Of a stretch of DNA of 15,026 nucleotides, positions 698 through 14,389 are shown in pieces. The stretch is taken from IMG/VR virus record IMGVR_UViG_3300045988_095445; one strand, 5' to 3'. The notes below the pieces were generated by a model, which worked only from the letters and a program-made list of their open reading frames with translations, searched no databases and was not told the DNA's origin. The translations under genes and the position numbers were made by a program. The stretch is from a virus. Every line of letters starts with the position of its first letter. The first letter of the stretch is position 1.

Positions 698-716
698 TTT
701 AATCTTTTTCCTCTTG

Positions 717-1712: not shown

Positions 1713-1900
1713 TTTATTATAAAAAATTGGACGAGAGAGCCAATATTGTTGGACCGATCGGAACTAGATAAAGGAAGAAAAAAAGTAGGGCCGATCGGTA
1801 TTTGGAAGAGGGCGTTATGAATTTCGGGAAAATCGCTATGAAGTTGCGTTATGGCCAAGTTGCTATGAAAATTTTGCGCTATGGTCCGATCGGGGAAATT

Positions 1901-1972
1901 CGGGCCGAGTCGCCCGCGACCGGCCCGCCCAAAATTTTGCATAAAAAAAATCTCCCCTTATGGGGAGATTTT
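1901..1972 (-). terminator. Double intrinsic terminator: a GC hairpin (1901-1927, CGGGCCG...CGGCCCG) followed by hairpin TCTCCCC-TTAT-GGGGAGA (1951-1969) flanked by A- and T-runs, so it is bidirectional.
   Basis: Perfect stems. Same architecture as the intergenic modules further right. Confidence 0.7.
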
Positions 1973-1975
1973 TCT

Positions 1976-2326: not shown

Positions 2327-2351
2327 ACCAACTATAACTTACCTCTTTTCT

Positions 2352-2379
2352 GGTAGGGCCGGGGTAGGCCGACCCTACC
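2352..2379. terminator. GC-rich hairpin GGTAGGG...CCCTACC between gene 2383-2700 and the GIY-YIG gene.
   Basis: 7-bp stem. T-rich on the + side only, so it may act as an attenuator. Confidence 0.35.
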
Positions 2380-2382
2380 CCG

Positions 2383-2700
2383 TTATTTCTTCGGTTTACG
2401 CTTTTGCACAAGCGTCAACTCGAAACTATCCCCACCAATAGAAAACGCAATCTGTCTTTCCTTGTTAGTAATAGACAAGTCAGCGATAGAGAATTGACTG
2501 TTTTTTTCCAAAAACTCTGCCAATTCCGCAATTATACCGCCTTTCGTGGCGTTTGGCTTGCGTTGCCGTGTAGTGAACTTATATGCGGTTGGCTGTTTGC
2601 GCGTTCCAGCATGGGCAAACTTTTGAGCGATTTTCGCCTTTTCTGGCGGTAAATCGTATTCAGTCTTTTTATCAGCCTCTACCGCCTTATCATAGGCCAA
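2383..2700 (-). CDS. Hypothetical basic protein, 105 aa.
   Basis: ORF with TAA stop and SD GAGGAGG upstream. No motif recognised. Confidence 0.55.
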   Translation of the reverse strand: MAYDKAVEADKKTEYDLPPEKAKIAQKFAHAGTRKQPTAYKFTTRQRKPNATKGGIIAELAEFLEKNSQFSIADLSITNKERQIAFSIGGDSFELTLVQKRKPKK

Positions 2701-2805
2701 TAAATCTGCCTCCTCTTCCGGCGTTAATTGCAGGGCTTTATACCTTGCAATCCGTTCAGCGTCACTAATGCGACTGGATATAATATCACCCCCATATTAT
2801 AAGTT

Positions 2806-2830
2806 AGGGCGGGGATTTTCACCCCGCCCT
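2806..2830 (-). terminator. Hairpin AGGGCGGGG-ATTTTCA-CCCCGCCCT. It is nearly identical to the hairpin at 5597-5622.
   Basis: 9-bp perfect stem immediately after the stop of gene 2839-3249. Confidence 0.6.
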
Positions 2831-2838
2831 ATACGGGG

Positions 2839-3249
2839 TTACGCCATCTTAAAGAGGGACTTGCCCTTCTTCTCCGTGCAGACTACTCGACCATCGAATT
2901 TCAACTGCCGCACAAGAGCGGCGACCTTCTGGTTAGAATAGGCCGTCAGATCAGGAATAGCCTTAAAAATTTCCGTGCAGGTCACGCCATCGGTATCGGC
3001 GTCCAGACCAGCCAGATACTCCATAATCTGCTCCTTAAAATTCTCATTCTCCTGCTGGGTGGGAGTCAACTTCTTATCACCGCTGGAGCTATTCTTCTTA
3101 CGCAGAAGCTCCAGCTCATGGTCAATGACAGTAATAGCCACCTCGATGGTAGTGCCATACTTTACCTCGCCGTCAGTCAAGAGGGCCTTAATGTCCTCAA
3201 AACGCTGGGCCTTAGTAGTGCGGATTTTCTTCTCGTCCATAATATACAT
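2839..3249 (-). CDS. Hypothetical protein, 136 aa. It is driven by four tandem promoters.
   Basis: ORF with TAA stop and SD AAAGGA. The C-terminal VTCTEIFKAIPDLTAYSNQKVAALVRQLKFDGRV might be a winged-helix, but that is weak. Confidence 0.6.
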   Translation of the reverse strand: MYIMDEKKIRTTKAQRFEDIKALLTDGEVKYGTTIEVAITVIDHELELLRKKNSSSGDKKLTPTQQENENFKEQIMEYLAGLDADTDGVTCTEIFKAIPDLTAYSNQKVAALVRQLKFDGRVVCTEKKGKSLFKMA

Positions 3250-3283
3250 CCTTTCTGGTTTTTAGGACTGTCCTTGTCCTTTG

Positions 3284-3490
3284 ATTATATTGTACCACAC
3301 TATTTGGTACTTGTCAAGAGGTTTTTCAAACTTTTTTCAAGAACTTTTGCTCTTTACTTGTTTGCCCTCTCAACCTCCCTTATAGTGTAACACACTTTGG
3401 AAAGTTTGTCAAGTCCTTTTTATTTAATTTTCAAGGTACATTGCCTTGTTTTCTGTACCTATTATAGCACATCTTCAAAGGCTTGTCAAG
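3284..3490 (-). promoter_or_regulatory. Three tandem near-consensus sigma-A/sigma-70 promoters on the minus strand, each with extended -10 (TGn).
   Basis: TTGACA-17-TGgTACAAT (3289-3317), TTGACA-17-TGtTACACT (3384-3412) and TTGACA-17-TGcTATAAT (3461-3489). Spacers counted directly. Confidence 0.75.
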
Positions 3491-3560
3491 AGGTTTTTGA
3501 AAGATTTTTGAGAAATTCGCTGTCGCTGTCTGCCGTTCGTTTCTCTCACTTTCTGAATGT

Positions 3561-3760
3561 ATTTTACCACAAGCAAAAGCAGATTGCAAGCGTCAAATTG
3601 CACAAAAATTGGAATTTTGGGAGAAAGTTTTTGTGCAGAATTTTGCACAAAACGGGGCTGAAATTTTTGTGCAACATTTACAAAGAAAAACTCGGGTCGC
3701 GCCGTTCCTGCGCGACCCGCTCAAATTTTGTATAAAAAAAGAAGGGCCGAAGCCCTTCTT
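3561..3760 (-). promoter_or_regulatory. Intergenic module A. On the minus strand it runs: terminator 1 (3741-3758), GC-hairpin terminator 2 (3693-3719), palindrome TTGTGCA-N6-TGCACAA (3631-3650) plus half-sites TTGCACAA (3598) and TTGTGCAA (3666), then promoter TTGCAA-17-TGgTAAAAT (3561-3589).
   Basis: Read directly. Terminator 1 (AAAAGAAGGGCCGAAGCCCTTCTT) is identical to 6509-6531. Confidence 0.7.
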
Positions 3761-3941
3761 AACAGAAAATACAGTTATCCAGAAAATCAAACAGGTGTTC
3801 ATCCTCAATGGGAACATTTACCAGCATATTTCCATCTTCGTCAATATCATCATGACACCATCCTATACGCTCAATAATTTGAATTGCCATGTAAACGGCA
3901 TCTGCACACAGAGAAGAGGTATATACAATTTTTGTTACCAT
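3759..3941 (-). CDS. Small protein, 60 aa (MVTKIVYTSSLCADAVYMAIQIIERIGWCHDDIDEDGNMLVNVPIEDEHLFDFLDNCIFC).
   Basis: The 111-aa track ORF 3759-4094 is a fusion artefact. The real start is ATG 3941, with SD GAGGAGG 6 nt upstream, right after the TAA of the upstream gene. Confidence 0.6.
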   Translation of the reverse strand: MVTKIVYTSSLCADAVYMAIQIIERIGWCHDDIDEDGNMLVNVPIEDEHLFDFLDNCIFC

Positions 3942-3942
3942 T

Positions 3943-4134
3943 TTATTCCTCCTCGAAATCATCAACCCCATATTGTCTCTGATATTCGTCACAGTCAAAC
4001 CATGGCTCACCCAAAGAGCAACAAAGTGATTCCGTGTCAAAATCTGGACAGATAGTATCATAGATTTGTTCTGGATCCATGCCTTCCTCGGCATAATGCG
4101 GGCAACTCCACCGCATACAATGAACCTGAGACAT
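3943..4134 (-). CDS. Small acidic Cys-rich protein, 63 aa (six Cys, possible Zn-binding).
   Basis: ORF with TAA stop and SD AAAGGA. Stop-start adjacent to the 60-aa gene. Confidence 0.55.
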   Translation of the reverse strand: MSQVHCMRWSCPHYAEEGMDPEQIYDTICPDFDTESLCCSLGEPWFDCDEYQRQYGVDDFEEE

Positions 4135-4148
4135 ATTATTTCCTTTCT

Positions 4149-4176
4149 GCCGGGCGGGGCTTTAAGCCCCTACCCG
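4149..4176 (-). terminator. Hairpin CCGGGCGGGGCTT-TAA-AGCCCCTACCCGG.
   Basis: Stem GGGGCT/AGCCCC plus an outer CCGGG/CCCGG pairing, immediately downstream of the exonuclease stop. Confidence 0.5.
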
Positions 4177-4986
4177 GATAGTTGGAATTGAACGCATACT
4201 TGCGGAAAGCTGACGCTGAAAATCTGTCATAGGAGGAAATTCTCTCTTATTCTCATACAGAGCCTTTCTCATGGGCTTATGTTGACGCATACAGTACCAC
4301 ATGATTTCCGCCTCAATGAGAACATCTTCAAGCCCCGTATGACTTTCCTCAAAATCGGTATTTCCAGAGATAAACCGCCACACGATTTCCGCAGTCTTAC
4401 GAGGAACGCCATTGGCCTGGATATATCCATTTTCCTGACAGAATTTCTTATAAGTGGGCATATTGCAGATAACATCTTGTGTCATCTTCATAATGTCCCA
4501 AATTTCCACACTGTCAAACGGGAACCAGTAGCGAAACTTAGAGCAAGTGACCCATCGTTGAATGACCCGCAGAGCGTTATCGTCAAACCGGGCATTATAA
4601 GCAGCCACCTCTTTAATGCCGTATCGCTCGATAGTATCAAGCATAGCCTGCCGGATTTCATAGGTTGTAGCCATCTTACGAGTGCCGGCCCGCAATTCCT
4701 CAACATAGCGGGGGATTTTCCAATTATAATAGGCCGTCCGCATTAAATCCCGCTCGTCATTGAAAATGTCCCGATTTACAAAACTTGCAGTTTCGTAAAT
4801 ATTGCCCTTGGTATCTACTACGGCCCAGCCGCAGTCATATACCAGTACATTTGACATATCCATGCGGACACGCTCAGGAGTGATAATCTCCCCATCTTCC
4901 CCGATTTCAGCGGGAACGGTTTCGGTTAGTGTGTTGGCGGTTTCAGTGTCAACCACCAGCACATAATGTCTGCGTTTATCAATCAT
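4162..4986 (-). CDS. DEDDh-family 3'-5' exonuclease (DnaQ/RNase T-like), 274 aa.
   Basis: Exo I VLVVDTETAN, Exo II VAAYNARFDDNAL and Exo III HTGLEDVLIEAEI (H-x4-D) in canonical order. Confidence 0.75.
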   Translation of the reverse strand: MIDKRRHYVLVVDTETANTLTETVPAEIGEDGEIITPERVRMDMSNVLVYDCGWAVVDTKGNIYETASFVNRDIFNDERDLMRTAYYNWKIPRYVEELRAGTRKMATTYEIRQAMLDTIERYGIKEVAAYNARFDDNALRVIQRWVTCSKFRYWFPFDSVEIWDIMKMTQDVICNMPTYKKFCQENGYIQANGVPRKTAEIVWRFISGNTDFEESHTGLEDVLIEAEIMWYCMRQHKPMRKALYENKREFPPMTDFQRQLSASMRSIPTIRVGA

Positions 4987-5020
4987 AATCTATCAAGTCC
5001 TTTCTTCTCTTGATGGTATT

Positions 5021-5049
5021 ATTATAGCACATTTAAGGCTTGGTGTCAA
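5021..5049 (-). promoter_or_regulatory. Consensus promoter TTGACA-17-TGcTATAAT (minus strand).
   Basis: -35 at 5044-5049 and -10 at 5021-5026, spacer 17. Confidence 0.7.
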
Positions 5050-5211
5050 GAGGAAAAGGAAATTTTGTTGCGATTTATTGCAAGCTACTGGACGATGGAA
5101 TGGCCTATTCCAAAGGCGCTCGCTCGACTTATAACACAAATACCCATTTTCTTCCTTTACTTTCTAAGAGTTCGCGACCTCTTGATTTCTTGGCCTCTCC
5201 CTCCTGACATG

Positions 5212-5380
5212 ATAATAATACCATACTTTTGGGAGAATTGCAAGATGGCAAATTGCACAACTTTTTGCCACCAAAATTGTGCAACATCTACAAAGAAAAA
5301 AATTCGGCGCGCCGCGTGCGTCAGCGCGCCGCTCAAATGACAATAAAAAAATACCCCTCTCATTATTGAGAGGGGTATTT
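5212..5380 (-). promoter_or_regulatory. Intergenic module B: terminator hairpin 5353-5378, GC-hairpin terminator 5305-5331 (identical to 6461-6487), TTGCACAA (5253) and TTGTGCAA (5278), promoter TTGCAA-17-TGgTATTAT (5215-5243).
   Basis: Read directly. Confidence 0.7.
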
Positions 5381-5581
5381 TTAATATCCAATATATTCCC
5401 TGTTGATTAGTTCATCTATTCCGTATACCAGATCATCAAGAGAGATAGGAAAGTCATCATCAATTTCATTATCTTCCATATTCCTGCTAATCTGGCTTAT
5501 GAGGATTGACGCATCTCTCAAGGCTTTTTTCTCTATCGAACCGAGAACAAGCCTATTAACTTTCCGAATTTCCATTTGCAA
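5381..5581 (-). CDS. Small acidic protein, 66 aa.
   Basis: ORF with TAA stop. No promoter of its own, so it is probably co-transcribed with the upstream genes. Confidence 0.45.
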   Translation of the reverse strand: MQMEIRKVNRLVLGSIEKKALRDASILISQISRNMEDNEIDDDFPISLDDLVYGIDELINREYIGY

Positions 5582-5596
5582 AACTCCCTTTCTTTG

Positions 5597-5622
5597 CGGG
5601 GCGGGGATTTTAACCCCGCCCT
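5597..5622 (-). terminator. Hairpin GGGCGGGG-ATTTTAA-CCCCGCCC. It is a near-copy of the 2806-2830 hairpin.
   Basis: 8-bp GC stem after the stop of gene 5628-6089. Confidence 0.55.
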
Positions 5623-5627
5623 CTTAC

Positions 5628-6089
5628 TCAGTTTAGATTGTTGATATATTCGATTATGTCTGTCTCTCCTGGATTTATTGTATCTCCTAAATGCCAACCG
5701 TGCCTAATTTTATCATTATCATCAAAAAGGATAAACGGCGGTTCATAGAAACTACGGAATACACATTTGGCTTTGGTCGTTCCGTATGCTACACAATGGC
5801 ATTTATGAGCCGGGAATTTATACCTTGCAAGCCATTCCTTTTTAGCGGCTGTGACTGCTTTCTTATATTCGGGAGTGCTTTCGGGCGGTAGCCATGTAAT
5901 TACTCTAATTTCCCATCCGTTATTGATTGCCTTTAGAAGCGCATTTCTAAGAGCTTCCATGTCCCACATAGGGGCCGCGTCTCGGAATGGGGTGGGGTCT
6001 CCATTGCGGAGTTTTTCGAGCCAATTAGGGACTGCATACAAGTCCGCGATAGTTCCATCCATGTCAAAGCAGAGCATTTTTTTAGTCAT
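5628..6089 (-). CDS. HAD-superfamily hydrolase, probably a 5'(3')-deoxyribonucleotidase-like (NT5C family) nucleotidase, 153 aa.
   Basis: Motif I FDMDGTIAD (DxDGT), Ser/Thr motif (VITW), Lys (KKEW) and motif IV FDDND. The start overlaps the upstream gene end. Confidence 0.6.
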   Translation of the reverse strand: MTKKMLCFDMDGTIADLYAVPNWLEKLRNGDPTPFRDAAPMWDMEALRNALLKAINNGWEIRVITWLPPESTPEYKKAVTAAKKEWLARYKFPAHKCHCVAYGTTKAKCVFRSFYEPPFILFDDNDKIRHGWHLGDTINPGETDIIEYINNLN

Positions 6090-6095
6090 TGTATA

Positions 6096-6344
6096 TCAAT
6101 CTCCTTTTGTTTTATTATACCACTTGTTGCCTACCTTGTCAACAAGTTTTTCAAAAAAAGTTTTACGCCGACATACCTTATAAGGTATTGACATATAATC
6201 TACATAGATCAGAGGATCTTGTAAAAGCACAGTCTGTATATAAATCTCATAATTAACCGGGGTAGTAGTATGCCCGAATTGTCTATGATAAATTTCAGCT
6301 ACGGTTAAGTATTCGTTAGGCTGAATAAACTTTGAAGGTTTCAT
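6096..6344 (-). CDS. Hypothetical protein, 82 aa. Its 3' end encodes the promoter and SD for the HAD gene.
   Basis: Strong SD GGAGGGG. TGA stop 6 nt before the HAD ATG. Confidence 0.55.
   Translation of the reverse strand: MKPSKFIQPNEYLTVAEIYHRQFGHTTTPVNYEIYIQTVLLQDPLIYVDYMSIPYKVCRRKTFFEKLVDKVGNKWYNKTKGD
6114..6142 (-). promoter_or_regulatory. Consensus promoter TTGACA-17-TGgTATAAT embedded inside the coding sequence of gene 6096-6344. It drives the HAD gene.
   Basis: -35 at 6137-6142, -10 at 6114-6119, spacer 17. Confidence 0.55.
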
Positions 6345-6371
6345 TTAGTATCCCCTCCTTTTTCTGTACTA

Positions 6372-6531
6372 ATAATACCATAATTTAAGGATAATTGCAA
6401 GATGGCAAATTGCACAAGATTTCAAGACAAAAATTGTGTAGAACTTACAAATAAGAAAACTCGGCGCGCCGCGTGCGTCAGCGCGCCGTCGAATTTTTAG
6501 TATATAAAAAAGAAGGGCCGAAGCCCTTCTT
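6372..6531 (-). promoter_or_regulatory. Intergenic module C: terminator 6512-6529 (same as 3741-3758), GC hairpin 6461-6487 (same as 5305-5331), TTGCACAA (6409), TTGTGTAG (6433), promoter TTGCAA-17-TGgTATTAT (6372-6400).
   Basis: Read directly. Confidence 0.7.
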
Positions 6532-6990
6532 TTATCTTTCAGCCATATTTGAAAAATACCTTGCGACTAGTTTAACCATTTCATGAATAGATTCATCATT
6601 GTGCAAATTTTTGTAACAAATGAATCCAATTTGTCCACCATCAGAAAAAATGGGAGTAATAAACATAGATTTCCACGCTGTCGCAGGTTGGCTGATATTA
6701 CTCCATTCATCTGGTGGTATAGAAATTTTGAAAGAACTAGGCCCGCTTAAAAGTTTATCTGAATCGAAGATTGCCGCGGAAATGTGATTAACAGAAAGGG
6801 CATTTCGCATTTCGTGGGCATGGTCAACGAAAAAAGATAGTGGAGAATATTTCTTGAAGGCTATACAGTCGCCATCAAGAAAAATTTCCATAGGGTCGCC
6901 TTCTCTAATTCGCATACTCCTACGAATTTCTCTAGGAATAACAATACGCCCTAGGTCATCAATATGTCGAACAATACCAACAGCTCTCAT
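6532..6990 (-). CDS. spoVT: SpoVT/AbrB-family regulator. It has an N-terminal swapped-hairpin DNA-binding domain and a SpoVT-like (GAF-type) C-terminal domain, 152 aa.
   Basis: GIVRHIDDLGRIVIPREIRRSMRIREGDPMEIFLDGDCIAFKKYSPLS is near-identical in pattern to B. subtilis SpoVT (GIVRRIDDLGRVVIPKEIRRTLRIREGDPLEIFVD...KKYSPIS). The C-terminal ...PIFSDGGQIGFICY...LVARYFSNMAE resembles SpoVT ...PIVANGDPIGAVVIF...FLARQME. Confidence 0.85.
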   Translation of the reverse strand: MRAVGIVRHIDDLGRIVIPREIRRSMRIREGDPMEIFLDGDCIAFKKYSPLSFFVDHAHEMRNALSVNHISAAIFDSDKLLSGPSSFKISIPPDEWSNISQPATAWKSMFITPIFSDGGQIGFICYKNLHNDESIHEMVKLVARYFSNMAER

Positions 6991-6999
6991 TTTTTTATC

Positions 7000-7033
7000 G
7001 CGGGAGCATAGAATACAAGTCCTATACTCCCGC
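7000..7033 (-). terminator. Weak hairpin GCGGGAG-N20-CTCCCGC between genes 7045-7443 and 6532-6990. It is possibly an attenuator.
   Basis: 7-bp stem with a long loop. No promoter lies between the two genes. Confidence 0.3.
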
Positions 7034-7044
7034 GCCTCCTTTCC

Positions 7045-7443
7045 TTAAAGCGATTTCCGCAGTTCGTCTAGTAGAGTAGACAGAGTTTTCATATCGCCGC
7101 CCATTTCCAGCTTGACACAAATCAGGCTTGCATTTTCCTCTACCCACTTTGTCACAGTGGACAGCTCTTCATCCATCGTTTGATTGATGGGGTTGTAAAG
7201 ACTGCACATATTTGACTTGGCGCACTCCGGGTCATAATAGCGGCGGAGCTTATATCCCTTTGCCGTGGCGCGCTCAATAATCTTTGTATTCAGCGCCTCA
7301 ATCTCTTTCCGGCCTTCCTCGATAAAATCCTCAAACTCTTTCATAGCTCCCGCATACTTGGCTCGGATTTCCTCTCGTTTGGCGTTCGCAATCTTGTTGA
7401 CCTCGTCATTGATATAGGCTTCAATCCTCTTAGTAACACGCAT
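7045..7443 (-). CDS. Hypothetical protein, 132 aa.
   Basis: ORF with TAA stop and the promoter just upstream. Confidence 0.55.
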   Translation of the reverse strand: MRVTKRIEAYINDEVNKIANAKREEIRAKYAGAMKEFEDFIEEGRKEIEALNTKIIERATAKGYKLRRYYDPECAKSNMCSLYNPINQTMDEELSTVTKWVEENASLICVKLEMGGDMKTLSTLLDELRKSL

Positions 7444-7501
7444 TTCTAAAACTCCCTTTCTTATTTTAATTTATTTTTGGGGCTGCCCCTTCCATAGTCT
7501 T

Positions 7502-7530
7502 ATTGTACCACAGAAGGGGCAATTTGTCAA
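7502..7530 (-). promoter_or_regulatory. Promoter TTGACA-17-TGgTACAAT.
   Basis: -35 at 7525-7530, -10 at 7502-7507. Confidence 0.7.
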
Positions 7531-7537
7531 CCCCTTT

Positions 7538-7768
7538 TTACAAGGAAAGTAAATCCATCATAGTCATTTCATCAACCGCCTTATCGGCTTCCTCATCGAA
7601 AATACCCTTGATAATATCGGCCGCGTCATCGGGAGTACATATGCCGATCCGCAGGAATTTCCCCAAAGACTGGAGCATTGCCTGTGCTGCTTCTCCTGGG
7701 CAGAACTCCTCCATGGTCTTATGCAGAAGAATAATCCCCTGTCTATCCTGCTCAGTCATTCTATACAT
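7538..7768 (-). CDS. Hypothetical acidic protein, 76 aa.
   Basis: ORF with TAA stop. Confidence 0.5.
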   Translation of the reverse strand: MYRMTEQDRQGIILLHKTMEEFCPGEAAQAMLQSLGKFLRIGICTPDDAADIIKGIFDEEADKAVDEMTMMDLLSL

Positions 7769-7819
7769 AGCAATATTTCCTTTCTGGTTTAATGAGTTTT
7801 CCTTCTCTTTACATTATTG

Positions 7820-7848
7820 ATTATACCACTGTTTAAGCGGTTTGTCAA
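7820..7848 (-). promoter_or_regulatory. Promoter TTGACA-17-TGgTATAAT.
   Basis: -35 at 7843-7848, -10 at 7820-7825. Confidence 0.7.
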
Positions 7849-7852
7849 CCCT

Positions 7853-7990
7853 TTACATCAAATTTTTTGCCAAATATGCGAACATTAGAATTTCTGCGGC
7901 AAACATGATTTCAAGCCGAATACAGCCTTTTTGAGCAGCCGCCATTAACTGCCATGCAAGGCAGGCCACAAACGCAATCAAAACAATCAT
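7853..7990 (-). CDS. Possible 45-aa hydrophobic peptide (MIVLIAFVACLAWQLMAAAQKGCIRLEIMFAAEILMFAYLAKNLM).
   Basis: ORF below the track cutoff. The SD is 22 nt from the ATG and the ORF lies between a terminator and the next promoter, so it may not be expressed. Confidence 0.2.
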   Translation of the reverse strand: MIVLIAFVACLAWQLMAAAQKGCIRLEIMFAAEILMFAYLAKNLM

Positions 7991-8023
7991 TGTGAAGGTA
8001 GTTATATATATACTCCTTTTCTG

Positions 8024-8050
8024 GTTAAGAGGGTTTATACCCTCTTAACC
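8024..8050 (-). terminator. Hairpin GGTTAAGAGGG-TTTATA-CCCTCTTAACC overlapping the stop of gene 8035-8268.
   Basis: 11-bp perfect stem with the TAA stop in the loop. Confidence 0.55.
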
Positions 8051-8268
8051 TCGATAATCTCCATATCGAAATCTTCCCAATATGCGCCCATGAGAAGGTC
8101 ATGCCGCAAGTCCCCTTCATTCTCATAGTCCATATCTTCCAGAATTTGGCTCCACTCGCTTTCGGAATACTGGGCCTTGAGCCAGTCCCATCCCGCATGG
8201 CGTGCGCCAGTTTCAGTATCAGAAACGCCGATAATCTTTTCTCTACTGTCAGCCATTACCAGATACAT
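8035..8268 (-). CDS. Hypothetical acidic Trp-rich protein, 77 aa.
   Basis: ORF with SD AAAAGGAGA and TAA stop. Confidence 0.55.
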   Translation of the reverse strand: MYLVMADSREKIIGVSDTETGARHAGWDWLKAQYSESEWSQILEDMDYENEGDLRHDLLMGAYWEDFDMEIIEVKRV

Positions 8269-8321
8269 AACTCATTCTCCTTTTGTTTCGAGGGCTTTTG
8301 TTCTCCCCTCTTGATGATACA

Positions 8322-8505
8322 AGTATAACAGATAGCAGATAGAAAGTCAAGCAATTTTGGGAAAAAATCTTCCGTCAGATTGCACAACAATTCGAGCCTA
8401 AAATTGTGCAAATTGCCTCTTGATAAAAAATTCCGGCCGCGCCTGTGGTGCACGGCCGGGCGAACGAATAAAAAAAAAGAACCTCCTGAATTTCAGGAGG
8501 TCATT
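8322..8505 (-). promoter_or_regulatory. Intergenic module D: terminator 8481-8504 (ACCTCCTGA-ATT-TCAGGAGGT), GC hairpin 8433-8459, TTGTGCAA (8404), TTGCACAA (8380), promoter TTGACT-17-TGtTATACT (8322-8350).
   Basis: Read directly. Confidence 0.7.
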
Positions 8506-8543
8506 AATTTCTGCATACCAACAACTTCCTTTCTTTTGAGAAG

Positions 8544-8777
8544 TCAATCGGCATTTTCAACAATCTTTAATCCGTTTGCTTGGATAATTTTCATAGCTTC
8601 TTCAAGCGAGGAATCAACCGATCCGCAGTCGATACAGATATATTTTCTGCCATCTTTTACCATAGTAGTAAAATAGTATTCTTGGCCAGAAACAAGGCCC
8701 ATCTACTCTCGCAGTCTTACTGGAATCATGATACGCCCACTTGAATCTAATTTCCTTGAGAAAGTAGTTTCTTGCAT
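8544..8777 (-). pseudogene. AbrB-fold (swapped-hairpin) gene with one in-frame TAG at 8703-8705. It is either an amber-recoded gene (one 77-residue protein) or a nonsense pseudogene.
   Basis: MQETTFSRKLDSSGRIMIPVRLRE-[TAG]-MGLVSGQEYYFTTMVKDGRKYICID... aligns colinearly with AbrB RKVDELGRVVIPIELRR-T-LGIAEKDALEIYVDD, with the TAG occupying one residue position. There is no SD upstream of the ATG. Stop is TGA at 8544. Confidence 0.55.
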
Positions 8778-9014
8778 TTTGATAAATAAATTCTAGTGAC
8801 CTAGGCTCGTGCGAAAAACGACTCCATCACGGGAATCGCCGATTTAGAACAATCGGAAGGAACATTTACCACTCGCAAGGCATTTTCTGGCAGAACTGAG
8901 ACATAGGGCAATTTTACAAGAATCCTAGTTCAAACAGAACTCTAAAATAACCGCGAGTGCTTTCAGCACTTCTAAGGTCATTAGAAAAACTCCTTTCTTT
9001 ATTTTTCTATAATT

Positions 9015-9043
9015 ATTATAATATATTTTTTTGAAAAAATCAA
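9015..9043 (-). promoter_or_regulatory. Promoter TTGATT-17-TATAAT, followed by SD AAAGGAG and an 18-aa ORF (8923-8979) containing hairpin GAAGTGC-TGAAA-GCACTTC, then about 200 nt untranslated.
   Basis: -35 at 9038-9043, -10 at 9015-9020. Leader-peptide-like arrangement upstream of the AbrB-like gene. Confidence 0.45.
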
Positions 9044-9182
9044 TAGGGCCGGCATTACGCCAGCCCTAATCTCTGTAACCAAACCAGATGGTATTTACCA
9101 ATGTGAAGTAGAACTGTGCCATATCCCTTATTTGTCCAAACAGTGGAACCGATAGGATATGTATGCGGTAAACGCTCAATAC

Positions 9183-9398
9183 TCACTTTAGTTCCACCTC
9201 CTCGAAAGCTCCAATTTTTAGCAGATAATTATATAAGGCTCTATCTTGTTTGTCGCCGGTATTAAAATCAAGAGTACGAACACAGCCGGTAACATTGGAA
9301 TTAAGAGGATGATTCAAACACCAACCAGCCATATTACAAATTGTGTCTCCAAACTCCGCAGATTTTTCTACACTTTCAAATTTAATAACAGCAATCAT
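9183..9398 (-). CDS. Hypothetical protein, 71 aa.
   Basis: Strong SD AAAGGAGGAAT. TGA stop. Confidence 0.55.
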   Translation of the reverse strand: MIAVIKFESVEKSAEFGDTICNMAGWCLNHPLNSNVTGCVRTLDFNTGDKQDRALYNYLLKIGAFEEVELK

Positions 9399-9421
9399 AT
9401 TTATTCCTCCTTTTTATCATG

Positions 9422-9450
9422 GGGAGTGGAGGTTTGTGGCCTCCACTCCC
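9422..9450 (-). terminator. Hairpin GGGAGTGGAGG-TTTGTGG-CCTCCACTCCC between co-oriented genes. It may act as an attenuator.
   Basis: 11-bp stem. The next gene's SD follows immediately with no promoter. Confidence 0.5.
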
Positions 9451-9460
9451 GCAAGTTTTC

Positions 9461-9700
9461 TTAATCATCTACATAAATGATTAAATTGTTATCTCTTGCC
9501 TCAATGCCGGTTACCTGAAGTCCTAGAACCCATTCCTTAGATATCTCGATTACGTCTCCTCCCAGAGTTATTCTACCATCAGGTAATTCATGGTAATGAG
9601 CTTGGGTATTCTTATTGATAATTTCAAATCCCTCCCCGTCAAAGAACATAGTATCTTCTGCAAGCGGAGAAAGTAACCAAGCAACCATATCTAAAGTCAT
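9461..9700 (-). CDS. Hypothetical acidic protein, 79 aa.
   Basis: ORF with SD AAAGGAAG and TAA stop. Confidence 0.55.
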   Translation of the reverse strand: MTLDMVAWLLSPLAEDTMFFDGEGFEIINKNTQAHYHELPDGRITLGGDVIEISKEWVLGLQVTGIEARDNNLIIYVDD

Positions 9701-9754
9701 TTTTTTTACTTCCTTTCAAATTCTTTTTGTGGCCTGTCCCTTTGGACAAGTATA

Positions 9755-9955
9755 TAATAACACATGGCAAAAGGAATGTCAAGTAATTTCGGGAGAAAAA
9801 CTTTCGTCGAATTGCACAGACTTTCGGTCATATAATTGTTGAAATTGCCGAATAAATAAAAATTCGGGCCGCGGCGCACGCTGGCGGCCCGGCGAAAAGT
9901 CAATATGGAAAAGTGCATAAAAATGACTGGCAATCTTTGTGTAGATTGCCAGTCA
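9755..9955 (-). promoter_or_regulatory. Intergenic module E: terminator 9925-9953 (11-bp stem), GC hairpin 9865-9891, TTGCACAG (9812), promoter TTGACA-17-TGtTATTAT (9755-9783).
   Basis: Read directly. Confidence 0.7.
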
Positions 9956-9967
9956 AGTATTATTCCT

Positions 9968-10201
9968 TTACAGCTCCATGGTTTCCATGAGATAGCCCGT
10001 GCCCATCGGCACCTCCCGCAGATTGCTGGGACTTATACGCAACTTATATTTCCTATTGATTTTATTCGCCGCACTTGTCTTATCTCTCGCTTGGACAATT
10101 ACTGGTATATGGAGTTTATTTAGAGTGGGCTTATTAAGACTGAAATATCCCATCTCTCTGCGCTTGCGGCCCATGGCGTCGATATAAGTCCCTCTATACA
10201 T
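9968..10201 (-). CDS. Hypothetical basic protein, 77 aa.
   Basis: SD GGAGG 5 nt before the ATG. TAA stop followed by a terminator. Confidence 0.55.
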   Translation of the reverse strand: MYRGTYIDAMGRKRREMGYFSLNKPTLNKLHIPVIVQARDKTSAANKINRKYKLRISPSNLREVPMGTGYLMETMEL

Positions 10202-10212
10202 TTTTCCTCCTA

Positions 10213-10359
10213 TTATTTAGTCATGAGAACGAACATATTATATTCGCTGTGCTGTGGGTTTGGCTCACAGTTATCTGCCACTATATCAGCCCAACTAAGA
10301 ACTGTCCAGAGTAGGAGAGCGGCACAAATGCCGCCTCCTATCCGCTTAATAATTCTCAT
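10213..10359 (-). CDS. Small membrane or secreted peptide, 48 aa (MRIIKRIGGGICAALLLWTVLSWADIVADNCEPNPQHSEYNMFVLMTK).
   Basis: Its ATG overlaps the TGA of the upstream gene (ATGA). The N-terminal hydrophobic segment suggests a membrane location. It is below the track cutoff. Confidence 0.4.
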   Translation of the reverse strand: MRIIKRIGGGICAALLLWTVLSWADIVADNCEPNPQHSEYNMFVLMTK

Positions 10360-10658
10360 TTCCATTTCTTTGCCTCCTGTTCTTTAACCCATTCAGTACC
10401 GATTGTATCTCCGACCATAGCAACCTTATATTCGTCTTCGCTTACAATTCTGGTATGCAGATTGCTATTGATAAACTTTCTATTGATATAAGCCCAGTGT
10501 GGCATATAGGCCACTCGCATGGCATTAAAAGCATCCAGGTCTAAGATGATGCCGTCCTCTACCTCTGCGGAACGCACATTCATCTTATACCGCAAAAGTT
10601 TAATAAATTCACGCTTTCTAAAAGTAGGCCCAACGAACCATTTAATATAATTGTTCAT
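10356..10658 (-). CDS. Hypothetical protein, 100 aa.
   Basis: ORF with SD GGGGAGAAAGGA and TGA stop. Confidence 0.55.
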   Translation of the reverse strand: MNNYIKWFVGPTFRKREFIKLLRYKMNVRSAEVEDGIILDLDAFNAMRVAYMPHWAYINRKFINSNLHTRIVSEDEYKVAMVGDTIGTEWVKEQEAKKWK

Positions 10659-10704
10659 AGTCTTTTATCCTTTCTCCCCGTATAGCCGTTAGGTCAGCTT
10701 CTTT

Positions 10705-10851
10705 TTAATCTACGATTTCTCCACTGGATAAATCCACAATCCAATGATTAGGATTGACTATCTCGTGACTGACCTTCCATCTTGCCATTGAAAGGGTGGA
10801 TGGTTCATAATAGCGCATTTTCTCATTGGCTAAAACTTGTAACTGATACAT
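10705..10851 (-). CDS. Small protein, 48 aa (MYQLQVLANEKMRYYEPSTLSMARWKVSHEIVNPNHWIVDLSSGEIVD).
   Basis: SD AAAGGGG 8 nt upstream. It is the first gene of a four-gene unit. Below the track cutoff. Confidence 0.35.
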   Translation of the reverse strand: MYQLQVLANEKMRYYEPSTLSMARWKVSHEIVNPNHWIVDLSSGEIVD

Positions 10852-10880
10852 ATAGTATGCCCCTTTCTTTTAATTATTAT

Positions 10881-10917
10881 AACCCTGCCTTGCCTTGTGT
10901 TTTGCAAGGCAGGGTTT
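10881..10917 (-). terminator. Hairpin AACCCTGCCTTGC-N-GCAAGGCAGGGTT.
   Basis: 13-bp stem after the stop of gene 10926-11300. Confidence 0.65.
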
Positions 10918-10925
10918 ATAAACTG

Positions 10926-11300
10926 TTATCCTCTAATTTCTTCTTCTTGGGTCTTTGTCGCCCAATCAAAAGAGGTACGAACATCGGAAGGTCTGCGGAA
11001 TTGCTCTGCTTCGGCCTCTGTCCCGCCTAATGCCATAGCATAGGCTTTCCAGTCAACCGTTCCTTTTGCGGTAGTTTCTTTATATACCACCGCTTTCGCC
11101 TTACTTTGCATTTGTACCGTGCCATATAGATAACTTGTTTTGTCCGTAGCCTTAAAAGCCTTACCTAATCTGGAGAATAGCTCTTTAGCCTTAGCCTTAG
11201 CTGCTTTCTCCGCCGCCTCCGCCGCAGACTTAGCCATCTTAGCGGCCATATACTCCATAATAATGGCTCGATCTTCATTGGTAAAATCAATCTTTTTCAT
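10926..11300 (-). CDS. Hypothetical Ala/Lys-rich protein, 124 aa. The true start is the internal ATG at 11300, not 11363.
   Basis: SD AAAGGGAG lies inside the track's N-terminal extension, so the track start is wrong. Contains coiled-coil-like AAKMAKSAAEAAEKAAKAKAKE. Confidence 0.55.
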   Translation of the reverse strand: MKKIDFTNEDRAIIMEYMAAKMAKSAAEAAEKAAKAKAKELFSRLGKAFKATDKTSYLYGTVQMQSKAKAVVYKETTAKGTVDWKAYAMALGGTEAEAEQFRRPSDVRTSFDWATKTQEEEIRG

Positions 11301-11353
11301 ACTCTTTTGACTCCCTTTCTTTTTGTGGTGTGGTTCTCTTTTGTTCTGTCTGT

Positions 11354-11479
11354 ATTGTATCAAACCTTTAGCAGTTTGTCAATACCTTTTTTGAAATTTT
11401 TTTAATTTTCAAAGTGCCGTGCTTTTGTCTCTGTCCTACTGGACAAGTCCAGTTTACCACCAAAATGCTCACTTGTCAA
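11354..11479 (-). promoter_or_regulatory. Two tandem promoters: TTGACA-17-TGaTACAAT (11354-11382) and TTGACA-17-TGgTAAACT (11451-11479).
   Basis: Spacers counted directly. Confidence 0.65.
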
Positions 11480-11504
11480 TAGTTTTTTTGAAATTTCTTT
11501 CTCT

Positions 11505-11570
11505 CTCTTTTGCACAAAATAAATAACATCTTGTTGTGCAGTTTGCACAAATCCTTTACGCGCGCGTATT
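11505..11570 (-). promoter_or_regulatory. Partial module F: TTGCACAA (11510), palindrome TTGTGCA-GTT-TGCACAA (11534-11550) and short GC palindrome TACGCGCGCGTA (11557-11568).
   Basis: Read directly. Confidence 0.55.
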
Positions 11571-11574
11571 CCTT

Positions 11575-11660
11575 TAGGGGGCGTGCTTTCTTGCTTTCGT
11601 ACTTTAACGAGTGAAAGAGGCCAACTACACTTCAATACTTTACCATGTGAAAGAGGGGCG
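11575..11660. repeat. Two ~22-nt direct repeats, TACTTTA(A/C)C(G/C)(A/G)(G/T)GTGAAAGAGG, bracketed by GGGGCGTG at both ends.
   Basis: Copies at about 11599-11621 and 11634-11656. GGGGCGTG at 11576 and 11656. Confidence 0.4.
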
Positions 11661-11753
11661 TGTATTTTGGGAAAAACTGGAAATTTTTTTGTAAAATCGT
11701 TCTGCCACGCCATTTCAAAATCTAAATCGACTTTTCAATCTCAATAACGAAAA

Positions 11754-14352: not shown

Positions 14353-14389
14353 TGGCAAACAAATCTCCTATCTTATTTTTTATAATTAT

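What the first reader, a model, noticed from the sequence alone, without database searches (positions are those of the whole stretch)
3598..11550. TTGTGCA-N(3-6)-TGCACAA palindromes and TTGCACAA/TTGTGCAA half-sites in every module: a shared operator for one global regulator?
Perfect palindromes occur at 3631-3650 (TTGTGCAgaatttTGCACAA) and 11534-11550 (TTGTGCAgttTGCACAA). Paired half-sites in opposite orientation, 17-25 bp apart, occur at 5253/5278, 6409/6433, 8380/8404 and 9812/9835.

They sit immediately upstream of, or overlapping, the -35 of the module promoters. This is the arrangement expected for a dimeric HTH repressor or activator that co-regulates all cassettes.

Candidate regulators encoded here are the SpoVT/AbrB homolog and the small basic proteins at 2383-2700 and 9968-10201. 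The regulator could also be encoded elsewhere in the genome.
Basis: seen in the sequence. Interest (0 to 1): 0.6.

Follow-up and report, generated by a model that had tools for sequence, protein, structure and literature searches.

The report
Host-type upstream element in phage promoters
The repeated TTGTGCAA sites are real: they form a fixed-position element just upstream of a subset of early promoters in a gut Clostridia phage, but the same element also sits in front of ordinary bacterial and conjugative-element genes, so its reader is most likely a still unidentified host factor, not a regulator encoded in this window.

Summary
TTGTGCA occurs 15 times against 1.6 expected, and 10 of the 12 perfect 8-mers lie in the non-coding third of the island.

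All genes and promoters are on the minus strand. Six junctions share one cassette: a 27-nt GC hairpin terminator, TTGCACAA, 15-16 nt, TTGTGCAA, then 8-9 or 29-30 nt to the -35 of a sigma-70-type promoter. The eight best-consensus promoters lack the motif, so it is not in every module.

The window comes from a TAG-recoded (code 15) Clostridia phage related to phAss-1. In the complete phAss-1 genome, 10 of 11 copies lie in one terminal block of about 10 kb.

An unbiased viral scan shows motif-to-(-35) gaps peaking at 8-9, 18-19 and 29-30 nt, which is helical phasing. The inverted repeat shows no compensatory changes, whereas the GC hairpin does.

The decisive result is that the same composite precedes host genes (rpsB, glnA-III, nrdD, crt/bcd, surface proteins) and ICE-like genes, almost only in Lachnospirales/Oscillospirales. 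phAss-1 lacks every candidate regulator of this window.

Best reading: a host-read upstream activating element built into PeSL-like terminator/promoter cassettes, where gene shuffling breakpoints fall. The reader protein remains unknown.

The parts
3693..3719 (-). 27-nt GC hairpin (10-bp stem, 7-nt loop) followed by a T-run on the minus strand; second terminator of the upstream operon, junction 1
3667..3674 (-). distal site, reads TTGCACAA on the transcribed (minus) strand, junction 1
3631..3650 (.). 20-bp perfect palindrome TTGTGCAgaatttTGCACAA (two extra sites; 3643-3650 is a perfect 8-mer)
3598..3605 (-). promoter-proximal TTGTGCAA, 8 nt upstream of the -35
3561..3589 (-). motif-linked promoter (-35 TTGCAA 3584-3589, 17-nt spacer, TG-extended -10 TAAAAT 3561-3566). 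It is the first of four tandem promoters before the wHTH gene 2839-3249.
   Evidence: downstream promoters
5305..5331 (-). 27-nt GC hairpin terminator, junction 2 (identical to 6462-6488)
5277..5284 (-). distal site (TTGCACAA on the minus strand)
5253..5260 (-). proximal TTGTGCAA, 9 nt upstream of the -35
5215..5243 (-). motif-linked promoter (-35 TTGCAA 5238-5243, -10 TATTAT 5215-5220; TCCCAAAA 5227-5234 lies in the spacer)
6462..6488 (-). 27-nt GC hairpin terminator, junction 3
6434..6441 (-). degenerate distal site (CTACACAA on the minus strand, 2 mismatches)
6410..6417 (-). proximal TTGTGCAA, 9 nt upstream of the -35
6372..6400 (-). motif-linked promoter (-35 TTGCAA 6395-6400, -10 TATTAT 6372-6377)
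8433..8459 (-). 27-nt GC hairpin terminator, junction 4
8404..8411 (-). distal site (TTGCACAA on the minus strand)
8380..8387 (-). proximal TTGTGCAA, 29 nt upstream of the -35. It is also the breakpoint of a 2.8-kb gene replacement relative to L124.
8322..8350 (-). motif-linked promoter (-35 TTGACT 8345-8350, -10 TATACT 8322-8327; TCCCAAAA 8355-8362 lies just upstream)
9865..9891 (-). 27-nt GC hairpin terminator, junction 5
9836..9843 (-). degenerate distal site (TTCAACAA on the minus strand, 2 mismatches)
9812..9819 (-). proximal site CTGTGCAA (1 mismatch), 29 nt upstream of the -35
9754..9782 (-). motif-linked promoter (-35 TTGACA 9777-9782, -10 TATTAT 9754-9759)
11534..11550 (.). 17-bp perfect palindrome TTGTGCAA-A-CTGCACAA (minus-strand reading). 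The same 8-N1-8 arrangement recurs in relatives.
11510..11517 (-). proximal TTGTGCAA, 30 nt upstream of the -35
11451..11479 (-). motif-linked promoter (-35 TTGACA 11474-11479, -10 TAAACT 11451-11456), followed by the motif-less consensus promoter 11354-11382

Best explanation
TTTGTGCAA is an upstream promoter element, not an operator for a regulator encoded in this window.

Layout. The element points towards the -35. An optional inverted partner, TTGCACAA, lies 15-16 nt further upstream.

Where it is used. It sits in front of sigma-A-type promoters in gut Clostridia (Lachnospirales/Oscillospirales), in their ICE-like elements and in their phages.

Proposed reader (inferred). A host-encoded DNA-binding factor, or a cofactor bound to RNA polymerase. 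It sits on one face of the helix about 48, 58 or 69 bp upstream of the start site and helps recruit host RNA polymerase.

Role in this phage. The phage is a code-15, phAss-1-like phage. It builds the element into about 100-bp composite cassettes. Each cassette has a GC hairpin terminator, the dyad, a TCCCRAAA box and a promoter, and it separates short, almost TAG-free operons of small early or host-takeover-type genes.

Second role. Because the cassettes are repeated, they also act as homology joints where genes are inserted, deleted or swapped between related phages, as PeSL cassettes do in T4-like phages.

Shown: the motif statistics, its position and phasing, its conservation, its confinement to one genome block, its presence at host and ICE promoters, and breakpoints at cassettes.

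Inferred: that it is protein-bound, that the protein is host-encoded, that the effect is activation, and that the genes are early.
For: Enrichment.
- The motif is enriched and intergenic.
- It is the most frequent 8-mer (135 copies) in 146 kb from 10 divergent phage loci. The centre is strictly TG/CA; TTGTACAA occurs 9 times and TTGCGCAA 4 times.

Conservation.
- In the orthologous junction of 10 relatives, the invariant columns are the hairpin base, TTGCACAA, TTGTGCA, TCC..AAA and the promoter hexamers.
- The inverted repeat has 0 of 8 pairs with compensatory change. The GC hairpin has 4 of 10.

Position and phasing.
- An unbiased viral scan gave 94 non-redundant sites. Gaps to the -35 peak at 8-9 nt (37 sites), 18-19 nt (15) and 29-30 nt (13); apart from 5 sites at 24 nt, the other gap values hold at most 3 each.
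- The inverted partner lies at N15-16 or N26-27. There are no direct repeats.

Distribution.
- In the complete phAss-1 genome, 10 of 11 copies are in the terminal block 126.7-135 kb plus position 407. The promoter layout is the same as here.
- A genome scan for the 21-base composite gave 73 loci against about 1 expected. Almost all are Clostridia.
- 52 of those loci lack any phage-island homolog. Of their 57 sites, 45 have a downstream same-strand gene and 40 have a properly spaced -10.

Host and ICE context.
- Downstream genes include ribosomal protein S2, glutamine synthetase III, NrdD, a divergent enoyl-CoA hydratase / acyl-CoA dehydrogenase pair and a MatE transporter.
- The Coprococcus catus isolate locus has chromosomal neighbours.
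- In ICE-like loci the element-specific palindromes vary while the dyad stays constant.

Regulators and shuffling.
- phAss-1 has no detectable homolog of any candidate regulator of the window.
- Shuffling breakpoints fall at cassette elements, and many island genes are present in only 2-9 of 27 relatives.
Against: - No protein has been identified and no binding or expression data exist.
- Perfect composites in bacterial genomes are rare: about 50 in 185,579 genomes. A large host regulon is therefore not demonstrated.
- Many hits are in MAGs, where phage or ICE contigs can be mis-binned. Only a subset is securely chromosomal.
- A cultured Lachnospiraceae phage (Enterocloster phage PMBT24) does not use the motif.
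- L041 shows some out-of-phase gaps of 23 and 33 nt.
- The wHTH gene is tightly linked to the largest site clusters in many phages, so a phage-encoded reader remains possible.
- Activation versus repression is inferred from geometry only.
Confidence: 0.5

Rival explanations
1. Phage-encoded regulator. The 133-aa winged-helix protein (2839-3249, minus strand) binds the sites. It autoregulates its own four-promoter region and co-regulates the motif-linked early operons, either as an activator or as a shut-off repressor.
For: - The gene lies directly downstream of the densest site cluster (3598-3674) and of four tandem promoters.
- It is present in 27 of 27 relatives.
- It is present in divergent motif-rich phages: L011, L041 and L083, 14 of 120 loci found by the DNA pattern alone, and 16 of 73 genome-scan loci.
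- The AF2 model has pLDDT 87. Its C-terminal ~68 residues match winged-helix DNA-binding domains (ArsR, MarR, PerR and TubR types) at rmsd 1.5-3 A.
Against: - There is no detectable homolog in the complete phAss-1 genome, which uses the motif. The syntenic 141-aa phAss-1 protein is not significantly similar (hhalign E about 0.1).
- The motif precedes host and ICE genes in loci without this protein.
- Other core island genes (the 274-aa and 153-aa proteins) are linked to the motif at least as often, so the linkage may only reflect a shared early region.
- The Foldseek E-values are weak (6e-3 and above).
Confidence: 0.2
2. AbrB/SpoVT-type regulator. The SpoVT-like protein (6532-6990) or the 77-aa AbrB-like protein (8544-8777) binds the sites. 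Because the 77-aa gene carries an in-frame TAG, it could be made only after suppressor tRNA appears and then shut off early promoters.
For: - Both proteins have SpoVT-AbrB domains (PF04014, E 3.9e-8 and 1.4e-3; phrog_4681).
- The 77-aa gene is in 26 of 27 relatives.
- It carries the island's only in-frame TAG (8703-8705), which aligns with Gln in relatives.
Against: - The SpoVT-like gene is absent from 11 of 27 relatives that keep the motif.
- Neither protein is detectable in phAss-1.
- The sites lie upstream of the core promoter, not over it.
- The motif is present at host and ICE promoters.
Confidence: 0.07
3. Intrinsic RNA polymerase element. The 8-mer is read directly by host RNA polymerase, through alpha-CTD or sigma-A, possibly with a small non-DNA-binding cofactor of the Spx type. 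No classical transcription factor is involved.
For: - The element has a fixed orientation and about 10.5-bp phasing relative to the -35.
- It occurs in front of unrelated housekeeping, ICE and phage genes.
- The flanks carry little information beyond tTTGTGCAAa.
- The B. subtilis trxB Spx/alpha-CTD element reads TTGAGCAAAAAAA. Its essential G and C lie at -44/-43, so 7 of 8 bases match (PMC2801614).
Against: - It is not A/T-rich like UP elements.
- The Spx element lies 3-4 bp closer to the -35.
- Most strong promoters, in this window and presumably in hosts, lack it.
- It is rare in bacterial genomes.
Confidence: 0.15
4. The repeats have no transcriptional role. They are only homology linkers, or sites for a recombinase, that shuffle gene cassettes, or they form an RNA/DNA hairpin.
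For: - Breakpoints between relatives fall at cassette elements, including the proximal site 8380-8387.
- Copies inside one genome are very similar: 5213-5331 versus 6370-6488 are 84% identical, with identical hairpins.
Against: - The 8-mer is conserved across phages, ICE-like elements and host promoters whose flanks are unrelated.
- Its position is phased relative to the -35.
- The inverted repeat shows no compensatory change.
- No integrase or recombinase gene is present in the window.
- No Rfam family matches.
Confidence: 0.05

Closest known systems
PeSL (promoter-early stem-loop) cassettes of T4-like phages (PMC2839356, PMC4122927)
   Same: - They are composite cassettes of about 100 bp.
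- They combine a stem-loop terminator with a strong sigma-70-type early promoter.
- They are repeated between small orphan genes in a plastic region.
- Insertions, deletions and replacements between related phages have their breakpoints at the cassettes.
   Different: - The phage lineage and host differ: a code-15 siphovirus-like phage of Clostridia, not a T4-like myovirus of Gram-negatives.
- The hairpin is a fixed 27-nt CGG..CCG stem-loop placed upstream of the promoter.
- The cassette carries a specific GC-containing dyad (TTGCACAA-N15/16-TTGTGCAA) in place of the AT-rich upstream region.
- That dyad is shared with host and ICE promoters.
- Mini-circles were not tested.
Host-takeover module of Bacillus phage SPO1 (own knowledge: Stewart et al. 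1998, Gene 222:?; about 24 small early genes in short operons with strong sigma-A promoters and terminators, in the terminal redundancy)
   Same: - It is a block of about 10 kb of small genes in short operons.
- Each operon has strong host-type promoters, strong Shine-Dalgarno sequences and terminators.
- The block lies at a genome end in the complete relative phAss-1.
   Different: - No homology was tested or found.
- SPO1 early promoters are not known to carry a TTGTGCAA-type upstream element.
- Timing has not been measured here.
Spx / alpha-CTD upstream element of B. subtilis trxA, trxB and nfrA (AGCA at -45 to -42; PMC2801614)
   Same: - It is a short element containing G and C just upstream of the -35.
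- It is read in one orientation by a polymerase-bound factor.
- trxB reads TTGAGCAA, against TTGTGCAA here.
   Different: - One base differs.
- It lies 3-4 bp closer to the -35.
- It is followed by an A-tract.
- It has no inverted partner.
- It controls a thiol-stress regulon in Bacilli.
- Nothing here shows that Spx is involved.
Class I / class III activator-dependent promoters (CRP/FNR paradigm; own knowledge)
   Same: - Sites lie upstream of an intact core promoter.
- They are displaced in steps of one helical turn.
- A second site on the same face is optional.
   Different: The site is an asymmetric 8-10-mer, not a 16-22-bp two-fold palindrome. The protein is unknown.
Rex operator (TTGTGAA-N4-TTCACAA; own knowledge)
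   Same: It shares the TTGTG...CACAA ends. Rex controls crt/bcd-type genes in Clostridia, and one host hit lies between crt-like and bcd-like genes.
   Different: - The half-site has an extra base (TTGTGCAA).
- The dominant arrangement is the opposite orientation with N15-16.
- The 17-bp palindrome is 1 bp shorter than a Rex box.

Membership tests
PeSL-type composite terminator/promoter cassette | Strong sigma-70-like promoter inside the repeated unit | tested here: met
   Six motif-linked promoters have TTGNNN-17-(TG)TANNNT hexamers.
PeSL-type composite terminator/promoter cassette | Adjacent stem-loop that can terminate upstream transcription | tested here: met
   A 27-nt GC hairpin plus T-run is present in 5 of 6 junctions. 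Compensatory changes occur in 4 of 10 stem pairs. Termination itself was not assayed.
PeSL-type composite terminator/promoter cassette | Repeated between small, variable orphan genes | tested here: met
   About 25 small genes are present and most have no Pfam or PHROG hit. Many are found in only 2-9 of 27 relatives.
PeSL-type composite terminator/promoter cassette | Indel and replacement breakpoints between related genomes lie at the cassettes | tested here: met
   Window versus L124: positions 5595-8380 are replaced, with breakpoints at hairpin 5599-5622 and at site 8380-8387. L124 and L147 carry a 0.9-kb insert flanked by copies of hairpin 1896-1929.
PeSL-type composite terminator/promoter cassette | Occurs in T4-like myoviruses; mini-circle formation | tested here: not met
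   The relatives are phAss-1-like code-15 Caudoviricetes predicted to infect Clostridia (PMC10607447). Mini-circles cannot be tested here. The cassettes are therefore an analogue, not a member.
Operator of an element-encoded dimeric repressor (lambda CI/Cro type) | Palindromic operator overlapping the core promoter | tested here: not met
   The sites end 8-9, 18-19 or 29-30 nt upstream of the -35. The core is asymmetric.
Operator of an element-encoded dimeric repressor (lambda CI/Cro type) | The cognate regulator gene is co-inherited with the sites and the sites are confined to the element | tested here: not met
   phAss-1 has the sites but none of the candidate regulators. The sites also precede host and ICE genes.
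Activator site of class I/III type | Position upstream of the core promoter on one helical face | tested here: met
   Gap peaks lie at 8-9, 18-19 and 29-30 nt in 94 non-redundant sites. The partner lies at N15-16 or N26-27.
Activator site of class I/III type | Identified activator protein and dependence of transcription on it | not testable with these tools
   No expression or binding data are available.
UP element (alpha-CTD) | A/T-rich sequence between -38 and -59 | tested here: not met
   The element is a specific GC-containing 8-mer, and its centre dinucleotide is strictly TG/CA.
Spx/alpha-CTD -44 element | AGCA at -45 to -42 followed by an A-tract | tested here: inconclusive
   The element has TGCA within TTGTGCAA(a), about 3-4 bp further upstream. 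It is 7 of 8 identical to trxB TTGAGCAA. Involvement of Spx cannot be tested.
Integron attC / cassette recombination site | Integrase gene nearby; imperfect hairpin conserved in structure rather than sequence | tested here: not met
   No recombinase domain was found in the window proteins scanned (20 against Pfam, 10 against PHROGs). The inverted repeat is sequence-conserved with 0 compensatory pairs.
Known RNA family | Match to an Rfam covariance model | tested here: not met
   There are 0 matches at gathering score and no tRNA.

The most novel reading that the evidence does not exclude
The TTGCACAA-N15/16-TTGTGCAA dyad marks an undescribed, lineage-wide transcription system of gut Lachnospirales/Oscillospirales. 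An unknown global activator or RNA-polymerase cofactor would read a fixed-phase element at about -48, with optional copies one or two turns upstream. Phages and conjugative elements would copy this element to get immediate high expression on entry. In these phages it would also serve as the homology joint for early-gene cassette exchange.
Probability: 0.35. Interest if true: 0.75.

Novelty: new variant of a known kind. Interest (0 to 1): 0.6.

Why it matters
If the reading is right, three things follow.

- **A new promoter element for hard-to-engineer bacteria.** It defines a portable upstream promoter element for gut Clostridia. Almost no promoter architecture beyond -35/-10 is known for these organisms. 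It also points to an unidentified host factor that could be fished out with a 31-bp bait.

- **How the phages start their programme.** It explains how a widespread group of TAG-recoded gut phages launches its early, almost TAG-free genes with host machinery alone.

- **PeSL-type shuffling is broader than thought.** It shows that shuffling through terminator/promoter cassettes, described for T4-like phages, also operates in an unrelated phage lineage of Gram-positive anaerobes.

For genome annotation, the 8-mer plus its spacing rule is a cheap marker of early promoters and cassette borders in these phages.

Tried and rejected
- **No close cultured relative.** Megablast of the whole window against the phage collection found nothing. 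An 81-nt cassette query found only one metagenomic record.
- **Cultured phage without the motif.** Enterocloster phage PMBT24 has 7 copies in 100 kb and none is at a promoter.
- **No literature record.** Searches for the literal motif, alone and together with Clostridia, operator and promoter terms, returned only primers or unrelated uses. A Lachnospiraceae transcription-start-site study does not mention it. The phAss-1 paper says nothing about promoters.
- **RNA or DNA hairpin reading of the inverted repeat: rejected.** There are no compensatory changes and no Rfam hit.
- **Hidden second half-site making a 16-17-bp palindrome: rejected.** The flanks carry almost no information in 39-45 non-redundant genome sites. 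Perfect 8-N1-8 palindromes do occur occasionally.
- **Remote homology between the wHTH family and the syntenic phAss-1 141-aa protein: not significant.** hhalign E is 0.08-0.1. For the neighbouring gene, blastp E is 0.022.
- **PDB sequence search with the wHTH profile:** nothing significant.
- **Sigma-54, DnaA-box, Rex, TnrA/GlnR and CRP/FNR consensus comparisons, done by eye from memory:** none fits in both sequence and spacing.
- **Autoregulated host regulator next to host sites:** only one PadR gene downstream and recurrent RHH genes in ICE-like loci were found. No consistent candidate emerged.

Full report
**What the window is**

The centre of the window (about 700-11,700) holds roughly 25 small genes, all on the minus strand. 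They form short operons with strong Shine-Dalgarno sequences. There are many near-perfect sigma-70-type promoters (TTGACA-17-TGnTATAAT) and intrinsic terminators on that strand.

The flanks are more AT-rich. They encode genes with many in-frame TAG codons: 17 in about 580 codons. The island has a single TAG in 2,411 codons.

A 274-aa island protein retrieved 27 related viral contigs of 11.8-164 kb (most 80-164 kb), at 74-99% identity. It also gave a distant hit in phage phAss-1 (OQ749652.1), classified in the 'Caudoviricetes code 15 clade'. That phage is a 136-kb gut phage that reads TAG as a sense codon and is predicted to infect Clostridia (PMC10607447).

The window is therefore the almost TAG-free, host-promoter-driven gene block of a code-15 Clostridia phage. 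That these genes are expressed early is an inference. It rests on the promoter type, the lack of TAG codons and the terminal position of the equivalent block in phAss-1.

**The observation**

TTGTGCA occurs 15 times against 1.6 expected.

Of the 12 perfect 8-mers TTGTGCAA/TTGCACAA, ten lie in the 3.7 kb of intergenic DNA of the island. The expectation there is 0.16, and the enrichment over coding DNA has p = 5e-4. The two coding copies are 2404-2411 and 6599-6606.

Two of the 'partner' half-sites are degenerate (6434-6441 and 9836-9843), and 9812-9819 has one mismatch.

**Anatomy**

Read on the transcribed (minus) strand, six junctions share one layout:
- the terminator of the upstream operon;
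- a 27-nt GC hairpin (CGGnnCGC...GCGnnCCG) plus a T-run, absent only at 11.5 kb;
- 18-21 nt of spacer;
- TTGCACAA, the distal site;
- 15-16 nt of spacer;
- TTGTGCAA, the proximal site;
- 8-9 nt (sites 3598, 5253, 6410) or 29-30 nt (sites 8380, 9812, 11510) of spacer;
- the -35 of a promoter with TTGCAA, TTGACT or TTGACA and a non-consensus -10.

A TCCCRAAA box lies a constant 17-18 nt after the proximal site in the two junctions checked by hand (5253 and 8380). It falls inside the promoter spacer in one register and just upstream of the -35 in the other.

The eight best-consensus promoters of the island have no site within 100 nt. Several of them lie downstream of a motif-linked promoter, in tandem with it.

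So the motif marks one promoter class. It does not mark every module, and it never overlaps the -35.

**Is the motif selected?**

All 27 relatives carry it, at 4-15 copies per 12-21-kb locus.

In an alignment of the orthologous junction from ten relatives, the mean column identity is 49%. The invariant columns fall on the hairpin base, TTGCACAA, TTGTGCA, TCC..AAA and the hexamers of both promoters.

On that alignment the GC hairpin shows compensatory changes in 4 of 10 pairs (14 cells, 97% paired), as expected for a terminator. The TTGCACAA/TTGTGCAA repeat has 6 invariant pairs and no compensatory change, and its variants simply break pairing. The repeat is therefore constrained in sequence, as a protein site would be, and not in structure.

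A pattern scan of viral contigs found unrelated-looking phage contigs with 9-21 copies in 5-13 kb, in the same layout.

In 146 kb from ten divergent phage loci it is the single most frequent 8-mer, with 135 copies. The centre is strictly TG/CA: TTGTACAA occurs 9 times and TTGCGCAA 4 times.

In the complete phAss-1 genome, 10 of 11 copies lie in the terminal block (126.7-134.9 kb plus position 407). They have the same promoter layout as in the window.

**Position rule**

I scanned all viral contigs for TTGTGCAA-N(0-30)-TTGACA-N(16-18)-TATAAT, with the first gap left free. This gave 94 non-redundant sites. The gap distribution was 37 sites at 8-9 nt, 15 at 18-19 nt, 13 at 29-30 nt and 5 at 24 nt. 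No other gap value had more than 3.

An inverted partner with at most 1 mismatch lies at N15-16 in 12 sites and at N26-27 in 11. There are no direct repeats.

The independent set from the window's family gave the same classes.

This 10.5-bp phasing, upstream of an intact core promoter and in a fixed orientation, is the geometry of a factor that must face RNA polymerase. It is not the geometry of an occluding repressor. That is an inference.

The flanks of the 8-mer add little information beyond tTTGTGCAAa.

**Who reads it?**

The window's candidates were examined first.
- The 133-aa protein at 2839-3249 is the best local candidate. It lies behind the largest site cluster and four tandem promoters.
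- It is present in all 27 relatives and in divergent motif-rich phages.
- It belongs to a large family without Pfam annotation, with 4,213 representative clusters.
- Its AF2 model (pLDDT 87) has a C-terminal winged helix resembling ArsR, MarR, PerR and TubR domains.
- Two AbrB/SpoVT-type proteins are also encoded in the island.

Three results argue against any of them being the cognate reader.

1. phAss-1 uses the motif but has no detectable homolog of the wHTH, of either AbrB-type protein or of the 105-aa basic protein. The syntenic phAss-1 gene pair resembles the wHTH/basic pair only weakly, with E of 0.02-0.1.
2. ORF 9968-10201 is in only 5 of 27 relatives and the SpoVT-like gene in 16 of 27.
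3. A scan of one genome per bacterial and archaeal species for TTGCACAA-N15/16-TTGTGCAA-N8/9-TTGAC gave 73 loci against about 1 expected by my estimate. These were almost all Clostridia.
   - The taxa were Lachnospiraceae, Oscillospiraceae, Acutalibacteraceae, Ruminococcus and Coprococcus, including cultured isolates.
   - Sixteen loci encode a wHTH homolog, and 21 carry some homolog of a window-island protein, so these look phage-like.
   - The other 52 loci have no phage-island homolog. Of their 57 sites, 45 have a same-strand gene within 300 nt. Forty have a correctly spaced -10, although the pattern did not ask for one.
   - Downstream genes include ribosomal protein S2, glutamine synthetase type III, NrdD, a divergent enoyl-CoA hydratase / acyl-CoA dehydrogenase pair sharing one dyad, a MatE transporter and many signal-peptide surface proteins.
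   - The site in the Coprococcus catus isolate lies among ordinary chromosomal genes.
   - In ICE-like loci the dyad sits between a divergent ribbon-helix-helix-like gene (judged by eye) and a conserved element gene. The element-specific palindromes around it differ from element to element while the dyad stays the same.

The simplest reading is that the dyad is read by something all these contexts share: the host transcription machinery or a host-encoded factor.

I could not identify that factor. The nearest described analogue I found is the Spx/alpha-CTD element of B. subtilis trxB. It reads TTGAGCAAAAAAA, with AGCA at -45 to -42 and an essential G and C (PMC2801614). It matches 7 of 8 bases but lies 3-4 bp closer to the -35. 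This is a lead only.

**Second role: cassette joints**

Comparison with close relatives shows gene replacements and insertions whose ends fall at cassette elements.
- Window 5595-8380 (seven genes) is replaced by about 560 bp in L124. The breakpoints lie at hairpin 5599-5622 and inside the proximal site 8380-8387.
- L124 and L147 carry a 0.9-kb insertion flanked by copies of the GC hairpin at 1896-1929.
- In L122, junction sequence 6370-6511 stands in front of the 274-aa gene.

Many island genes occur in only 2-9 of 27 relatives. Cassette copies within the window are up to 84% identical over 119 nt, with identical hairpins and terminators.

This is the behaviour described for PeSL cassettes of T4-like phages: a strong early promoter plus a stem-loop terminator that flanks orphan genes and mediates modular shuffling (PMC2839356, PMC4122927). 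Here it appears in an unrelated phage lineage and with an added specific upstream dyad.

**Verdict**

The motif is a shared, selected, promoter-linked protein site. It is wrong on 'every module', on overlap with the -35, and on the proposed phage-encoded regulators.

The best explanation is a host-read upstream activating element embedded in PeSL-like terminator/promoter cassettes of the early block of a code-15 Clostridia phage (confidence 0.5).

The main rival is the linked winged-helix protein as reader (0.2).

The element itself appears undescribed in the literature I could search. I rate the finding as a new variant of a known kind, with interest 0.6.

Noticed in passing
window 12895-15026 and 8703-8705: TAG is used as a sense codon in the flanking genes (13248-14072-, 14020-14358-, 14455-15026+; 17 in-frame TAG). 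The island has only one, in the AbrB-like gene 8544-8777. That TAG aligns with Gln in L128 and L146. L130 has a TAG at another position where L146 has Gln. A TAG-gated DNA-binding protein inside an otherwise TAG-free block could be a timing device.
   Followed up: partly
window 1-166: There are five copies of a 27-nt repeat, ATTTCATGGTATTCTGACAATACTATG. By eye, each contains an inverted repeat (CATGGTATT..AATACCATG). They look like iterons or operators at the edge of the island.
   Followed up: no
window 586-1893 and 12589: The palindrome CCGATCGG occurs 8 times against 0.13 expected, often as CCGATCGGnTCTAGATA. Seven copies lie between 586 and 1893. Six of these are in the non-coding stretch 1200-1970, which also holds a 56-nt direct repeat (1350-1405 / 1639-1694). 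By eye it also holds five GCKYTATGR repeats (about 1812-1880) and a junction-type GC hairpin (1896-1934) without TTGTGCAA sites.
   Followed up: no
window 2807-2830, 4152-4175, 5599-5622: A second hairpin family, GGGCGGGGATTTTMACCCCGCCC, lies between genes inside operons and has no T-run. The copy at 5599-5622 is one breakpoint of the 2.8-kb replacement relative to L124.
   Followed up: partly
window 3615-3622, 5227-5234, 8355-8362, 9787-9794 (minus strand): A TCCCRAAA box (8 copies against 1.75 expected) lies 17-18 nt downstream of the proximal TTGTGCAA in the two junctions checked by hand. It sits either in the -35/-10 spacer or 4-5 nt upstream of the -35. The core hexamers therefore occupy two registers about 21 bp apart on one conserved scaffold. 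Its function is unknown.
   Followed up: partly
window 3289-3589; L149 7100-7380: Four tandem promoters precede the winged-helix gene 2839-3249 (-35 hexamers starting at 3589, 3489, 3412 and 3317). By eye, phAss-1 has three tandem promoters behind its own site cluster, before a pair of genes of similar size and predicted make-up.
   Followed up: partly
window 2839-3249 (minus strand): The 133-aa winged-helix protein belongs to a large uncharacterised family: 4,213 representative clusters at E<=1e-3, with no Pfam or PHROG model. The domain sometimes occurs inside much longer proteins (P0120, P0159, P0200).
   Followed up: partly
L168, L175, L177, L182, L198, L212, L213, L214, L225: ICE-like loci of Clostridia carry the same dyad between a divergent ~65-77-aa gene that looks ribbon-helix-helix-like by eye (no domain search run) and a conserved element gene. 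Element-specific palindromes (for example ACTCACGCGAGTAT and TTGCGCAAYGTGC) are interleaved with the dyad and differ between elements.
   Followed up: partly
window 3735-3760 and 6506-6531; 5305-5331 and 6462-6488: There are two identical 26-nt terminators and two identical 27-nt GC hairpins in different junctions. The 119-nt junction copies 5213-5331 and 6370-6488 are 84% identical. This is evidence of recent duplication or gene conversion between cassettes.
   Followed up: partly
window 1976-2326, 4162-4986, 5628-6089 (minus strand): Three core island genes are shared with distant motif-bearing phages. One is a T5orf172-domain protein. One is a 274-aa protein about 38% identical to a stretch annotated as exodeoxyribonuclease in Enterococcus phage H1 (phrog_20187). 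One is a 5'-3' deoxyribonucleotidase-like protein (phrog_2643).
   Followed up: partly
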